Shown piece by piece: positions 57,001-63,595 of a stretch of 63,595 nt of DNA; position 1 is the first letter of the stretch; every line of letters starts with the position of its first letter. The DNA lies in the NCBI RefSeq assembly GCF_032062105.1, contig NW_026935162.1, forward strand, positions 1 to 63,595, given 5' to 3'. Made by a program: the position numbers. This DNA is from Saccostrea cucullata. Its lineage: Eukaryota.

Positions 57001-60000
57001 GATAGTTTGGGACAACCGCGGTCATTTGTTTTATTTGGGAATACATAGGAAAAAGTCTTTTAAAGAAGAATAGCAATTTCAGCAAGCTAAAGGTTCACGT
57101 TATATGCTTTTGCATTGGCGCCGCGTAAACTTTTGCATCCATTATTAAAATAATATCTGTGAAACCCGTAGTGGTGGCAAATTGTTCAAAAGAAATCTAC
57201 GCGTAGACAATGAAGAAGAACACGCAACAATTAAATATTTATCACTCCATTAAAACCTACTGGTTCTGCGTATAAAACAATGTTAATCTACTCTATTAGC
57301 GATCAATTTATAATTCTTAAAATCGAAGCAATAATTAGAATAGGTCGTCTGTTAAAAATAAATGGAAATGGAAATTCTTGTTGAAATGGAATGTTTACTG
57401 CAATCAAATAGCGAAAAAATGATTTTTTTTCAAATGACAAAATTAATGTTAAGTCAAATCGAATTATCTGAGAAAAAAATGAAATACATGTAGTGGTATT
57501 TTGACTGAGGAATGCAATTGATGCATACTGATTTAAGTGAATTTTACAAATTCTTGTGACAGGTTTACTTCTTACAAATGCGTAGTTACGGTCAAGAATT
57601 GTTCGTTAACAAATTATTTTATCTGCTATATGGTCTCGTTTAAACTGAAGTCGAAACTAGCAAGTTAAAAAATGACCATTGGGCGTAATCTGAAAGATAC
57701 GAAATACAAAATGTCAGCTCAGCAAAGCTCTTACATTATTTGTTAGAGTAAAGAACAAAAAAGTCATATTTTTAAGAAATCTCAGCAAAGTCAAGGCATG
57801 TTGATTGATAGAGCTAGGAGCTGCAAGGGCCAAGCCGGCCCTACCTTAAAAATGAATATATATGAATTCTCTGTATATCACAATTAACGCTATTTTGGCA
57901 TACATGTATCATAGTGATGTACACTAATCCTAGATCTAGTTTTTTTTTTTACCAAAATCAACCCCTTTTCTTCCTACAAAATTTGAACTTGCGAGCGATG
58001 CTAAATGAATATATTTTCTCCTTTACTTATTTTCATTCTCTTTGTTTATTCTTCTCTGTCTGTATGTCTGTCCCCCCCCCCCTCTCCCTCTCTATTTGCC
58101 TTCGTTATCTTAATAAATACTCTTCGATAAATGATATCGGCAACGATATGGGGAAATAGTACTTATATGTGAATGTATCTTTTGTCGTCTTATATGCAGA
58201 AAAATAAGGATTATCTCGGGACATATTAATGCCAGGGACAATTTGTTCCGATGGACGACAACATGTGCACTGAGTCCGACGACAATATGTGCAGAACGGT
58301 AATGTATATGTACATGTACCATCGAAACAATTCTTTTTTTTCAATACATTAGCATACCATACTCCAAAGCTATAGTTACTTAATCAACTCAATTGAAATA
58401 ATCTTTTTCCTTTTAAATAATTAAAGATTTCCTATTCATTAATTAAATACAAGACGAAAGCGCATACTTTAAGTAATGTATATTGACATGTTTTATTGTT
58501 GAGAACATTGAATCTTTTATTTAATGTCTCCTGCGTGGCGTAGTGGTTAGAGCATCTGCTCTAAAAATAATTTTTGCGAAATAAGGAGTATATCCTTACT
58601 CCTGAATTAAATATAGTTAAGACTTCTTAAAATTTACAACATAAGACCCTGTCTACAAAGTAAGAAATAAATGTCAGTTAAGTACTTTGCATTCTGTAAG
58701 AAACACATTTCAAATGTGAAACGCTAACGTAGCTTTATTCATGAATCCATGAAAATCCGATCCATAGAAATATTCACTCTTTAAGTGTTGGCATATATGC
58801 TGTCCGAAGTCAGATATTCACACACAGCCTTAAAGCAAAACTCATATTCGTCCTGCGAGAAAATAATAAACATTTGAATAATATGTTTTTCAGAATTTTT
58901 AAATGCGTCAAATTCCTGAATATATATATGTACTAATTTAAACATTAAATATGTGCCAATTACTTTGGTAGATATCATTTCCGGTCGGCGACATTGCAGT
59001 TGTTGTACTGTGGTAAATATGTCTACCTCGTCGTCCAGCTGTAATTGTTCTATGGCGTTATACACAGCAATAAATACACCACAGCACGTTGCTCCGTCCC
59101 TAGAAAAAAATAAATCATTCAACATAATTATTCTTAACATAACATTATTCTTAAACAATATTTAAACAAACATTACTGAGCACAGATAGTTCAAAATATT
59201 TATTTCTTGAAATTTGTAATACATACTTGGAAATAAGGGTCACAGGGCCATCTGGATTTGACTTTCTATCCGAGCGAAACTGTTTTATCAAATTTGTTAT
59301 TGAAGAGGTTTGTGCTGGTAGAAACTCAGATAAACTCCAATCAAGACATTCAAATACCTGTACTTCATGACATTCATCCTACAGATAATGTTGAACATAT
59401 TTAGGAAATTCCTTCTCACTTTTATTTTTTTTAAAGATAAATATTGTTTTTCGGGGAATTATTTATGGGGGAAACATATGATTTTATTTTCAAAACCTTG
59501 TGATCTCAATGTTTGAGTTTCACATTCTAAAATTCCTATTTTAAATTTTTTATATTCTTTCACATTCAGGTAAATCTTCGAATCCATAATCTATATATAA
59601 CACAATCCAAAACTAAAAGGGAAAATCAAAATTCCCTTTTTTTACCCAAGGTTTACAATCTAAAGTCATTTTGGTCTTAAAATCCTTATATGTGTCTCCA
59701 CAAGTTCCTTTTTTGAAGATTTTTTTTTTAAGTATTTGAGGAACGTTCCTCTTTCTACACTTCAGATGCATTTGTTATGACCAGAGATTTGAGGAACGTT
59801 CCTCTTTCTACACTTCTGGTGCATTTGTTATCACCAAACATTTGAGAACGTTCCTCTCTCTCTCTCTCTCTGAACTTCAGATTCATTTGTTATGACCAGA
59901 CATTTGAGGAACGTTCCTCTCTCTGAACTTCATATGCATTTGTTATGACCAGACATTTGAGGAACGTTCCTCTCTCTGAACTTCAGATGCATTTGTTATG

Positions 60001-63000
60001 ATCAGACATTTGAGGAACGTTCCTCTCTCTGAATTTCAGATGCATTTGTTATGACCAGACATATGAGGAACATTCCTCTCTCTAAACTAAGATGAATTTA
60101 TTATCACCAGACATTTGAGTAATGTTCCTCTCTTACATGTGCACATACAGCGTGTATTTTTAAATACTTTAAGAATCTTAACACATGAGACATTTGAGGA
60201 ACGTTCCTCTCTCAAATTCACTTTTTCTGAAGACATCTCATGAAACATCTCATCAAACATCAGGCATTTGAGGAACGTTCCTCGCTCGAATTTAATTATT
60301 ACTGTTGGCATCTCAAGGATTGTCAAATATCAGGCATTTGAGGAACGTTCCTCTCACAAATGGTTGTCTCATGAATTGTCAAACATTAGGCATTTCAGGA
60401 ACGTTCCTCACTAAAATTTAACATTGTTCACACAGGATACTTACATGTATGAGAAATGTTCCTCTCTAATATTTGTATATGTTGATACCTTATTCATTTG
60501 AGGAACGTTCCTCTCACAAATGGTTTTAATACATGTGCTAATAATTTAATAAAATATTCTAAATCAATAAAACATTTTTTGAGGACTTTTTTTGGAAATA
60601 TGGATTCTTATTCTTGCTTCCTTAAGATCTGACAATTAAGTGCAGGAGATGTTGTTTTCGCATTATTATTAAATTTTTTTTACAAAATAATTCTGTGGAA
60701 TGTTTCTTTGCATTTAATATGTACAAACCAGATTTTAGCCTGAGATTTGTTATTCCCGAACTAGAATAATAAGTAAAGTTTTACAGAATATATAAATTTC
60801 ATTACATTTTTTTTAAATATATTGAAACTATCCAAATTTTAAGGAGTAAAATTTAAAACTCTAACAAGATCTTAATTCTCTACTGTTTGAGTTCTGTTCT
60901 ACAATGTAAATTGCTTCAATCTTCTGACTGCAGAGACATGTTTATCTATAACACATCAGTATCATAGCATCAGCACTGATCTTTACTGTCCATGAAGTCA
61001 CAGGGGACAGATAGTTGCCAGAGCTGATCGCCTATAGCTAGTGTTCCATGAGCATATATGATTGGCAGTGATTAATAACAATTACATGTGAGCTGGGCAG
61101 GAAGACATCAAGTCTTTATCTTTAAAAGTAAGAAATGATGCAGGAATTAGGGTTACTAGACAAATCCCTATTATAGAATCAATTCTTCAGTTTTAAGAAA
61201 TATAAGTACTACAATATAATACAAATTGAGATTCCAGAATGAAAATAGGTTGTGTAAATTAAAGAATACATTAATAAAACCCATGAAATATTATATGACA
61301 CCTGCATCACTATGGAAAAGAGAAATAAATTTAAAAAAATTGATGACTTATATTATCATACATGTATATAAAATGTTCATTGGAGGAGTATGGAGCTTAA
61401 GACCTATATATTATTATAATTTACATTTCCAATTGTCACTTAGTTTTTAAATTAGTGTTACATGCAAGATATAAAAGAATGATTTTTCTAAACATAATTC
61501 TCAAATCAGAGTTATTACTGTAAACGTGTAACATTTGGGGTGTATTCTTTTTAGCTTTTTGGCGGAAAGAAACATCCGCTAATTTAAGTACAACACTAAA
61601 TGCTTAAACATAAAACATTAAAATGCGCTAAATCATACCTACGCTAACTTATTAAAATATCAACTTCCGCCAATATAGTACAACTCTAAATATAAAACAT
61701 TTAATATTTCATTAAAATAGTATGAGAAAGATAGAAAGTGTCAATTTTGCAATATTCTTAATACAGTATGGAAATGCTTTCATAATTCATGGGCAATTTA
61801 AGTTCAAAATTTAATTTAAGTTTTGCAATTTTTTTATATCGATTTTTCAAGTCTATTTAATTTTTAGATGATACATCAAAACTTGTTATTATGTACACAT
61901 TGTTTCGATTATTCTAACTTTGGCTGAATCACATCTTTCATAATACGACATGCCGCTGTATTGAATGTGAGATTTTTCCTACGGAAGATGACACCCAAGA
62001 AACTTGTTGAGGCTGTTTTACTTTGACTGATGAAAAAATGCTATGAACCTTTGGAGACCAAGGAATTGGAATCGTCTCTATTATGAGGGAAAGATGTAAC
62101 CGAGAAAGAAACATGGTTGACCTTCATCAAAACTTTGGTTTAATTTCGTGGTAGAAAGGAAAAATACTGTGGGTATTAACCTGTTAACCAAGACATTGTA
62201 ATATGTGATCACACTGCCATTCAGCGAAAAAGTCTTTTGAGTTGATACATGAACACTGCACATTGCACATGCTTGTTCCGAATTGAAAAAATTGTTTGTT
62301 CCTGTACCTAGTTTATATTATGCTTTAAGAAAGCCTTAATTCAAAAAGTACTTTATAAAATGACAAAATGATTTTTCATACATATTTTGTAGAGTGTGTA
62401 CAGAAAAAAAATGTTTCTATGAATATGTACTGCATTTCATATAAAAGAGAGAAATGTTTCCCAAATTCTTCATGTACGATAAAAACTAATATAATATCAC
62501 AAAACACATGATAATGTTAGAGAGAAATGTTCCTTTAAAGATATTTTTAAGTGGGCTTTGCAATGTATCAACAGATATTCATTACAAGACAGAGGAACGT
62601 TCCTCAAATGCACGGGTTGAAGCTTCATGAGGTATAAGTAATCAACAGACACAACCATTTGTGAGAGGAAGTTCCTCAAATGCTGATTTAATATGAATAA
62701 GGTATCAACATATACAAATCTGAGAGAGGAACGTTTCTCATACATGTAAGTATCCTGTGTAACAATGTTAAATTTTAGTGAGGAACGTTCCTGAAATGCC
62801 TAATGTTTGACAATTCATGAGACAACCATTTGTGAGAGGAACGTTCCTCAAATGCCTGATATTTGACAATCCTTGAGATGCCTACAGTAATAATTAAATT
62901 CGAGCGATGAACGTTCCTCAAATGCCTGATGTTTGACCATTCATGAGATGTCTTCAGAAAAAAATGAATTTGAGAGAGGAACGTTCCTCAAATGTCTCAT

Positions 63001-63595
63001 GTGTTAAGATTCTTAAAGTATTTAAAAATACACGCTGTATGTGCACATGTAAGAGAGGAACGTTACTCAAATGTCTGGTGATAATTCATCTTAGTTTAGA
63101 GAGAGGAATGTTCCTCAAATGTTGGTCATAACAATGCATCTGAAGTTCAGAGAGAGGAACTTCCTCAAATGTCTGGTCATAACAAATGCATCTGAAGTTA
63201 GAGAGAGGAACGTTCCTCAAATGTCTGGTCATACAAATGAATCTGAAGTTCGAGAGAGAGAGAGAGAGAGAGGAGGGAACGTTCTCAAATGTTTGGTATA
63301 AGCAAATGCACCAGAAGTGTAGAAAGAGGAACGTTCCTCAAATCTCTGGTCATAACAAATGCATCTGAAGTGTATAAAGAGGAACGTTCCTCAAATACTT
63401 ATAAGAAAAATCTTCAAAAAAGGAACTTGTGGAGACACAAATAAGGATTTTAAGACCAAAATGACTTCAGATTGTAAACTGTGGGTGAAAAAAGGGAATT
63501 TTGATTTTCCCTTTTTGTTTTGGATTGTGTTACTATCATTAATCTAATGTAAATTTTTCTTTGTTTGATAAAAATTTGTAAACTTATTTTTGTTA

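What the first reader, a model, noticed from the sequence alone, without database searches (positions are those of the whole stretch)
59600..63530. 3.9-kb foldback element with about 0.9-kb modular inverted arms inside a receptor-PTP intron
Seen: arms 59600-60525 and 62653-63530 are near-identical reverse complements with TA on both flanks. Each arm has a unique terminal segment of about 135 bp, an outer tandem domain (53-bp unit) and an inner domain where the same palindrome is separated by unrelated spacers. The two arms differ by about one 53-bp unit. Established: a modular long TIR is the architecture of Foldback/Galileo-type elements, which promote rearrangements. Inference: this is a young, possibly unclassified bivalve foldback family. 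If the intron is transcribed, the pre-mRNA would form about 0.9 kb of dsRNA starting about 220 nt from a PTP splice acceptor (potential ADAR/siRNA substrate or splicing modifier).
Basis: partly seen in the sequence, partly recalled or inferred. Interest (0 to 1): 0.75.

Follow-up and report, generated by a model that had tools for sequence, protein, structure and literature searches.

The report
Foldback-type transposon in oyster intron
A 3.9-kb non-coding insertion with two mirror-image 0.9-kb arms, each built from about 14 copies of one short palindromic motif, sits in an intron of an oyster tyrosine-phosphatase gene; it is a clean but fairly ordinary example of a known transposon architecture.

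Summary
Arms 59598-60525 and 62653-63532 are reverse complements: 842 of 865 aligned columns match (97.3%), with 18 gaps. The local alignment score is 1465, against at most 29 in 20 shuffles. Each arm has a 134-bp unique end, a 53-bp tandem domain and an inner domain. All three share one 23-nt motif with a perfect 14-nt palindromic core. The 2.1-kb middle has no coding signal: 0 of 16 ORFs give a significant Pfam match.

The element lies 220 nt upstream of the acceptor of the third-last coding exon of a minus-strand receptor-PTP-like gene. The closest proteins are from Saccostrea oysters.

The best reading is a non-autonomous foldback-type DNA transposon. Its arms are probably arrays of transposase-binding sites. 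It is not a member of the FB/Tetris or Galileo lineages, because no 5-10-bp target duplication exists. Only TA/TA flanks it, which weakly suggests Tc1/mariner-like integration.

Mobility, copy number, the autonomous partner and novelty against Repbase/Dfam could not be tested, because no eukaryotic DNA collection was available. A minus-strand RNA fold predicts 840 arm-arm base pairs. The dsRNA idea is therefore physically sound, but no expression data were available to test it.

The parts
59598..59599 (.). Left flanking TA, the putative 2-bp target-site duplication. It could equally be the outermost 2 bp of the inverted repeat.
   Evidence: Sequence. Boundary scan: TA/TA is the only exact match that keeps complementary termini. 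The chance of TA on both sides is 0.008, and of any identical dinucleotide 0.083.
59600..59733 (+). Left arm, flanking (unique terminal) domain of 134 bp. It contains a 9-bp-stem hairpin at about 59615-59640.
   Evidence: 128 of 136 columns identical to the right arm when the TA is included. DNA fold: the hairpin is present, but the domain as a whole is no more stable than shuffles (z = -0.42).
59734..60140 (+). Left arm, outer domain. It holds 53-bp tandem units with 8 motif copies, plus a (CT)9 run at 59854-59871.
   Evidence: TRF gives period 53, 7.4 copies and 84% matches. Core positions and spacings of 53, 52, 63, 53, 53, 53, 52 come.
60141..60525 (+). Left arm, inner domain. It holds 6 further motif copies at spacings of 79, 74, 70, 56, 55 and 49 bp, and is partly 70-bp periodic.
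60526..62652 (.). Middle domain (2127 bp). It is AT-rich, with no coding or RNA-family signal. Its right edge (62429-62652) carries extra motif copies that have no partner in the left arm.
   Evidence: All 16 stop-to-stop ORFs of 40 aa or more were scanned in Pfam and none passed a cut-off. Rfam gave only 2 sub-threshold hits at E up to 1, neither in this domain. ARAGORN found 0 tRNAs. Extra motif copies at 62522 and 62592 come, and the repeat family member at 62429-62468.
62653..63530 (-). Right arm, the reverse complement of the left arm: inner, outer and flanking domains in mirror order.
   Evidence: Ten motif copies pass an ungapped scan at 3 mismatches or fewer. Three more, at about 62664, 63150 and 63275, carry one-base deletions.
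63531..63532 (.). Right flanking TA.
59226..59378 (-). Context: third-last coding exon of the receptor-PTP-like gene. Its acceptor AG lies at 59379-59380 on the minus strand, 220 nt from the element.
   Evidence: Pfam Y_phosphatase profile positions 132-176, E 0.021, below the cut-off. tblastn of P0001 residues 486-536 gives 92% identity. Splice site read.
58784..59104 (-). Context: the last two coding exons, at roughly 58964-59104 and 58784-58852, with a short intron between them. The stop codon is at 58781-58783.
   Evidence: Pfam Y_phosphatase positions 176-222, E 4.1e-5, 23.8 bits against a cut-off of 20.9. tblastn of P0001 residues 535-604. Exon limits are approximate, read from the frame.

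Best explanation
This is one copy of a non-autonomous class II (cut-and-paste) transposon of the foldback structural type. It sits in an intron of an oyster receptor-PTP-like gene.

Each 0.9-kb arm has three parts: a unique 134-bp end, a tandem array of 53-bp units, and an inner array with other spacers. All parts are built around one directional 23-nt motif, which has a perfect 14-nt palindromic core and occurs about 14 times per arm.

Inferred mechanism:
- The motif copies are reiterated binding sites for a transposase supplied in trans. That protein probably binds as a dimer, given the palindrome.
- The unique ends carry the cleavage sites.
- The arrays grew and shrank by slippage or unequal exchange, which explains the one-unit difference between the arms.
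- The TA on both flanks suggests, weakly, Tc1/mariner-type integration.

Side effects, also inferred:
- The pre-mRNA (minus strand) can fold the arms into a dsRNA of about 840 bp.
- The DNA can extrude hairpins, which may favour deletions or rearrangements.

Shown here: the anatomy, the lack of coding capacity, the intron position and the folding potential. Inferred: mobility, transposase binding, superfamily, and any effect on RNA.
For: - Arm symmetry ends sharply at both outer ends, at complementary termini.
- The flanking/outer/inner/middle layout matches the scheme described for foldback elements (PMC4079207 passages).
- The 23-nt motif is 87% identical between outer and inner units, while the flanks are 26-38% identical (42 unit pairs). 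All 14 left-arm copies point the same way.
- The 10-nt centre occurs 17 times, all 17 inside the element, where 0.03 are expected.
- Tandem repeats inside the long inverted repeats of Galileo hold experimentally shown transposase-binding sites (PMC3688188, passages and Introduction).
- There is no coding signal in the middle: 0 of 16 ORFs.
- TA/TA flanks are present.
- DNA transposons and their non-autonomous forms dominate bivalve repeatomes, with Tc1/mariner and hAT the richest lineages (PMC10294476 passages).
- The fold gives 840 arm-arm pairs, with longest perfect helices of 121, 103 and 72 bp.
Against: - Only one copy was seen. No part of 59400-63595 recurs elsewhere in the window: 0 of 96 blastn HSPs lie outside the region.
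- Two searches with arm ORF translations in the 5.8-billion-cluster protein set found nothing. That is weak evidence, because such ORFs are rarely predicted as proteins.
- A 2-bp palindromic 'duplication' from one copy cannot be told apart from 2 more bp of inverted repeat.
- A rival 3-bp TAT/TAT reading exists if the terminal base pair is allowed to mismatch.
- The unique ends, which should be constrained, are the most diverged part at 94.1%, against 98.0% and 97.9% for the other domains.
- No transposase, empty site or second copy is available.
Confidence: 0.6

Rival explanations
1. A non-mobile local inverted duplication. A minisatellite-bearing intron segment was copied in reverse by template switching or fold-back repair, and it has never transposed.
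For: - A single copy in the window.
- No duplication of 5 bp or more.
- Nothing related was found with the tools available.
Against: - Both outer ends stop at exactly complementary bases next to TA.
- The three-domain arm layout is the one typical of foldback transposons.
- The middle is not symmetric, and the arms have since diverged by many indels.
Confidence: 0.15
2. Two separate insertions of the same repeat-bearing element of about 0.9 kb, head to head and 2.1 kb apart, rather than one element with two arms. A solo-arm or HINE-like element would be an example.
For: - Oyster genomes are full of non-autonomous Helentron elements that carry tandem repeats (PMC7492417 passages).
- The arms differ by 2.7% and by 18 gaps.
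Against: - The inner ends have no TA and no sharp terminal feature. The left inner end runs into TT and the right into GT.
- The right-hand motif array simply continues past the limit of homology (62429-62652). That looks like a truncated left arm, not like two complete elements.
- The HINE layout of two different flanks with 11-12-bp subterminal repeats is not seen.
Confidence: 0.1
3. An assembly artefact, meaning a chimeric or collapsed long-read palindrome.
For: - Eleven one-base deletions are concentrated in the right arm, most of them outside homopolymers. This could reflect poor consensus quality there.
- The element ends 63 bp from the window end.
Against: - A 2.1-kb asymmetric middle, unequal arms and substitutions in both arms are not what fold-back read chimeras produce.
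- There is no N run in or next to the element. The only N run is at 15190-15330.
Confidence: 0.05
4. A host hairpin-RNA or regulatory module. The arms would be kept either because the intronic hairpin yields small RNAs, or because the roughly 28 palindromes bind a dimeric host factor.
For: - A long, near-perfect predicted hairpin.
- Strong conservation of the motif compared with the spacers.
- Eleven or twelve of the 14 CpGs in the left arm lie in or at the edge of motif cores.
Against: - The arms resemble nothing else in the window and no protein.
- Motif conservation is equally expected for transposase sites or for recent tandem duplication.
- There are no expression data.
Confidence: 0.05

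Closest known systems
Tetris (Drosophila virilis foldback transposon; PMC4079207, passages seen)
   Same: - Long inverted arms divided into a flanking domain, an outer domain of tandem repeats and an inner domain.
- A variable middle domain without coding capacity.
- A variable repeat number between arms.
- No autonomous copy known.
   Different: - Tetris has units of about 220 bp and 8-10-bp target duplications, which suggest the Mutator superfamily.
- Here the units are 53 bp, the shared motif is palindromic, and only TA flanks the element.
- Sequence relatedness was not tested.
Galileo (P superfamily; PMC3688188 passages and Introduction; PMC4168063 passages)
   Same: - Arms of 0.5-1.2 kb with internal tandem repeats that carry extra transposase-binding sites.
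- Many copies lack the transposase.
- Arms change quickly by repeat gain and loss.
   Different: - Galileo makes 7-8-bp duplications with consensus GTANTAC and encodes a THAP-domain transposase.
- Neither feature is found here.
Long-inverted-repeat Tc1/mariner elements of the IR-DR type (Sleeping Beauty, Bari-like; mentioned in PMC3688188; further details recalled)
   Same: - TA target.
- Repeated transposase-binding sites inside extended inverted repeats.
   Different: - Those elements have two or three sites in arms of a few hundred bp and encode a transposase (recalled).
- Here there are about 14 sites per 0.9-kb arm and no gene.
- The TA assignment rests on one copy.
Oyster Helentron-associated elements (Cg_HINE; PMC7492417 passages)
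   Same: - Same host group.
- Non-autonomous.
- They carry short satellite-like tandem arrays and sometimes a microsatellite.
   Different: - HINEs have two different flanks with 11-12-bp subterminal inverted repeats and a 3' palindrome around one central array.
- Here the whole 0.9-kb modules are mirror images.
KolobokP (rich in bivalves; PMC9587614 abstract)
   Same: - Long terminal repeats of 450-660 bp on a DNA transposon.
- Abundant in bivalves.
   Different: - KolobokP repeats are direct, and the element encodes a transposase and a nuclease.
- Here the repeats are inverted and nothing is encoded.

Membership tests
Foldback-like elements (structural class, scheme shown in PMC4079207) | Very long terminal inverted repeats that make up a large share of the element | tested here: met
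   The arms are 926 and 878 bp of 3931 bp (46%), and 97.3% identical.
Foldback-like elements (structural class) | Modular arms: a unique flanking domain, an outer tandem-repeat domain and an inner domain, around a middle domain | tested here: met
   134-bp unique end; 53-bp period with 7.4 copies; inner domain with other spacers; 2127-bp middle.
Foldback-like elements (structural class) | Dispersed copies, meaning evidence of transposition | not testable with these tools
   No eukaryotic DNA collection was available. One copy in the window. The protein-set searches were empty.
FB/Tetris-type foldbacks (Mutator-like) | Target-site duplication of 8-10 bp | tested here: not met
   No duplication of 5-10 bp with at most one mismatch at any of 9 boundary settings.
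Galileo / P superfamily | Duplication of 7-8 bp, consensus GTANTAC (PMC4168063) | tested here: not met
   The flanks read ...CTATATATA and TACTATCAT....
Galileo / P superfamily | THAP-domain P-like transposase in autonomous copies | not testable with these tools
   This copy has no coding signal (0 of 16 ORFs). No partner element could be searched for.
Tc1/mariner superfamily | TA target-site duplication | tested here: inconclusive
   TA is present on both flanks, with a chance probability of 0.008. But TA is its own complement, so it may simply extend the inverted repeat. Only one copy is available.
Tc1/mariner superfamily | DD(E/D) transposase in an autonomous relative that shares the termini | not testable with these tools
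   None in the window, and no genome to search.
PIF/Harbinger | 3-bp TWA duplication (recalled) | tested here: not met
   With ends set at 59601 and 63529, the flanks are TAA and TTA, matching at 2 of 3 positions.
Helentron-associated HINE | Two different flanks with 11-12-bp subterminal inverted repeats and a 3' palindrome around one central tandem array (PMC7492417) | tested here: not met
   Both modules are full mirror images with two arrays.
KolobokP | Long terminal direct repeats (PMC9587614) | tested here: not met
   The repeats are inverted.

The most novel reading that the evidence does not exclude
The element founds a mollusc foldback lineage that is mobilised by a TA-targeting (Tc1/mariner- or pogo-like) transposase. 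Its arms are arrays of about 14 copies of a perfect 14-nt palindrome, read by a dimeric DNA-binding domain. This copy has also been taken over as an intronic source of about 0.84 kb of dsRNA, or as a platform of roughly 28 palindromic sites for a host factor. The 10-nt centre fits the loose Rel/NF-kB consensus GGRRNNYYCC and a two-unit heat-shock element. Both of those fits are recalled consensus sequences and were not tested here.
Probability: 0.12. Interest if true: 0.55.

Novelty: new member of a known kind. Interest (0 to 1): 0.3.

Why it matters
If dispersed copies exist, this would extend foldback-type transposons to bivalves, where the searchable literature describes none. The palindromic, highly reiterated motif would be a convenient handle for finding the matching transposase.

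Long near-perfect intronic hairpins are the main substrates of A-to-I editing in metazoans, a survey that included the oyster Crassostrea gigas (PMC9989829 passages). They can also affect splicing and genome stability. This copy could therefore mark a testable case in an expanded oyster receptor-PTP gene family. As it stands, it is a well-formed example of a known architecture, not a new principle.

Tried and rejected
- **Other copies in the window.** The 28-nt terminus matches only the two ends. blastn of 59400-63595 against the window gave 0 of 96 HSPs outside the region.
- **Copies elsewhere through predicted proteins.** The translations of two arm ORFs found no candidate. This is no evidence of absence.
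- **Exact 20-nt motif scan of the bacterial and archaeal genome collection.** I ran this in case of host contamination. It gave 0 matches.
- **The motif string in the paper library.** 0 papers hold it.
- **Transposase remnants.** All 16 ORFs of 40 aa or more in the middle domain and two arm ORFs gave nothing above a Pfam cut-off. The best was DUF4470 at 17 bits against a cut-off of 25.
- **RNA genes.** Rfam found 0 families at gathering score across the window and 2 sub-threshold hits in the region. ARAGORN found 0 tRNAs.
- **Whole-frame translations.** I replaced them with stop-free ORFs.
- **Longer target duplications.** None found.
- **Heat-shock-element and kB-like readings of the palindrome.** I considered these from recalled consensus sequences only, and kept them as a low-probability reading.
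- **Two papers not held.** PMC2268567 and PMC1449584 are cited only through other papers.

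
Full report

Yes. The ungapped repeat finder reports collinear inverted pairs:
- 59598-59871 with 63259-63532 (274 nt, 94%)
- 60100-60226 with 62959-63085 (127 nt, 98%)
- 60253-60428 with 62761-62936 (176 nt, 99%)
- 60430-60497 with 62693-62760 (68 nt, 96%)

A gapped local alignment joins them into one pair of arms, 59598-60525 and 62653-63532. 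A global alignment of these arms (928 and 880 nt) has 865 aligned columns, 842 matches (97.3%), 23 mismatches and 18 gaps. The local score is 1465, against at most 29 in 20 shuffles.

The largest gaps are 40+3 bp present only in the left arm (59872-59916) and 13 bp present only in the right arm (62683-62695). They also differ by 11 one-base deletions in the right arm, most of them outside homopolymers.

There is no N in or beside the element. The only N run in the window is 15190-15330, and I left it untouched.

**2. Anatomy**

The termini are ACACAATCC... on the left and its complement on the right, each next to TA. Each arm has three domains:

| Domain | Left-arm coordinates | Content | Identity between arms |
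|---|---|---|---|
| Flanking | 59600-59733 (134 bp) | Unique sequence with a 9-bp-stem hairpin | 94.1% |
| Outer | 59734-60140 | 53-bp tandem units, 7.4 copies, 84% matches, plus a (CT)9 run | 98.0% |
| Inner | 60141-60525 | Same motif at spacings of 79, 74, 70, 56, 55, 49 bp; 2.5 units form a 70-bp period | 97.9% |

- The shared motif is 23 nt long, with a perfect 14-nt palindromic core.
- Between outer and inner units the motif is 87% identical, while the 25-nt flanks are 26-38% identical (42 unit pairs). One outer unit with a one-base deletion was left out of that count.
- All 14 left-arm copies have the same orientation.
- The 14-mer has 22 hits at one mismatch or fewer, 15 of them exact. 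All lie inside 59738-63392, and 100 shuffles gave 0.
- The 10-nt centre has 17 of 17 hits inside the element, against 0.03 expected.
- On the right side only, the motif array runs on inward past the end of arm homology (62429-62652). The left arm therefore looks truncated.

**3. The middle domain**

The 2127-bp middle (60526-62652) has 16 stop-to-stop ORFs of 40 aa or more. All 16 were scanned in Pfam and none reached a cut-off. Rfam and ARAGORN found nothing credible. This copy is non-autonomous.

**4. Gene context**

- The ORF at 59154-59378 (minus strand) matches the Y_phosphatase profile at positions 132-176. The match is weak (E 0.021) and below the cut-off.
- The ORF at 58784-59161 (minus strand) continues at profile positions 176-222 (E 4.1e-5, above the cut-off).
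- I searched residues 18-66 of that second ORF on their own. Eighteen of 19 candidates passed, all named receptor-type tyrosine-protein phosphatase-like proteins of Saccostrea cucullata or S. echinata, at 77-91% identity. The window therefore comes from an oyster of, or near, that genus.
- tblastn of the 604-aa protein P0001 places residues 486-536 at 59378-59226 (92% identity) and residues 535-604 at 59104-58784. Nothing in the window matches residues 1-485.
- The element therefore lies in the intron upstream of the third-last coding exon. The acceptor AG is at 59379-59380, 220 nt from the element end.
- I worked exon by exon.

**5. What kind of element is it?**

The layout is the one drawn for foldback transposons: flanking, outer tandem and inner domains around a non-coding middle (PMC4079207, passages). 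That paper also reports the view that the foldback form can arise independently in several superfamilies, and that target-duplication length is the main clue when no transposase is known.

- I scanned 9 boundary settings and lengths of 2-10 bp. No duplication of 5-10 bp exists, even allowing one mismatch.
- This fails the Tetris/FB criterion of 8-10 bp and the Galileo criterion of 7-8 bp with consensus GTANTAC (PMC4168063, passages).
- Only TA/TA fits with complementary termini. TA on both sides has a chance probability of 0.008.
- TA is its own complement, however, and may simply extend the inverted repeat.
- A TAT/TAT reading with a mismatched terminal pair, and a TAA/TTA reading (2 of 3), remain formally possible.
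- I therefore treat a Tc1/mariner-like origin as a lead, not a result.

**6. How it most likely works**

In Galileo, the tandem repeats inside the long arms carry extra transposase-binding sites shown by footprinting and gel shift. The authors propose that such multiple sites give binding specificity and offset the cost of length (PMC3688188, passages and Introduction). By analogy, I infer three things:
- The 23-nt motif is the binding site of a transposase supplied in trans.
- The palindromic core points to binding as a dimer.
- The arrays grow and shrink by slippage or unequal exchange.

None of this was tested here.

**7. Consequences for the RNA**

The minimum-free-energy fold of the minus-strand RNA 59380-63595 (4216 nt, -1875 kcal/mol) pairs the arms over 840 bp in 31 uninterrupted helices. 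The longest are 121, 103 and 72 bp. Young inverted repeats are the main A-to-I editing substrates in most metazoans, in a survey that included Crassostrea gigas (PMC9989829, passages). ADAR activity in oysters is the subject of papers I saw only in the search listing. Editing, small RNAs or a splicing effect at this locus are plausible but unshown.

**8. Rivals**

- **Static local inverted duplication.** It fits the single copy, but not the sharp complementary ends and the typical domain layout.
- **Two independent head-to-head insertions.** This is unlikely. The inner ends lack TA or any terminal feature, and the right-hand array simply continues.
- **Assembly artefact.** It is not favoured, because of the asymmetric middle and the unequal arms. 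The excess of one-base deletions in the right arm may still reflect consensus quality.
- **Host hairpin-RNA or factor-binding module.** It cannot be excluded, but it has no positive support.

**9. Comparison and novelty**

- Eleven papers hold the words foldback, transposable and bivalve.
- In the three oyster papers I opened (PMC7492417, PMC8268682, PMC11136912), 'foldback' refers only to the Drosophila element Tetris.
- The repeat-bearing oyster elements described there are Helentron-derived, with a different layout.
- KolobokP has direct repeats, not inverted ones (abstract).
- The motif string occurs in 0 papers.
- I could not search Repbase, Dfam, any eukaryotic DNA collection, the closed metagenome and viral contig collections, or supplementary tables of oyster satellites and HINEs. 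'Undescribed' therefore means only that I did not find it in those searches.

I rate the element as a new member of a known kind, of modest interest.

**10. Caveats**

- Statements about FB, the sea-urchin TU elements, Tc4, the detailed IR-DR layout, the PIF/Harbinger duplication, and the kB and heat-shock consensus sequences are recalled and come from no call.
- No part of the window was taken for human.

Noticed in passing
window 27286-27605: A small hairpin-type element with 104-nt inverted arms (92% complementary) separated by 112 nt. It looks like a MITE and is unrelated in sequence to the 3.9-kb element.
   Followed up: partly
window 32119-32281: An almost loop-less palindrome with 80-nt arms (86% complementary) separated by 3 nt. 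It is another foldback-like miniature element.
   Followed up: partly
window 18518-19777 and 31438-32770 (also 35079-35239): Several collinear inverted matches of 86-186 nt at 81-88% identity, 12-16 kb apart. They suggest copies of another repeat family in opposite orientation.
   Followed up: no
window 46173-51145 (+), 17476-18262 (-) and 24361-24798 (-): Exon-like ORFs with EGF-like and weak galactose-binding-like (F5/8 type C) signals lie on both strands. The Pfam hits for the plus-strand set are all below cut-off, with weak tblastn matches to the extracellular parts of the Saccostrea receptor-PTP-like proteins. The minus-strand ORFs look similar in the translations. This suggests that further members of the same expanded gene family lie in the window, in both orientations.
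   Followed up: partly
window 31091-31339 (-): An ORF whose translation reads like the C-terminal part of a C-type lectin domain (WNDxxC-like ending), seen in the ORF list. It was not scanned.
   Followed up: no
window 59598-60525 against 62653-63532: Eleven one-base deletions sit in the right arm, against about two in the left, and most are not in homopolymers. They may be real decay of one arm or lower consensus accuracy there.
   Followed up: partly
window 59598-60525: Eleven or twelve of the 14 CpGs in the left arm lie in or at the edge of motif cores. CpG observed/expected is 0.49 in the arms and the middle, against 0.86 for the whole window.
   Followed up: no
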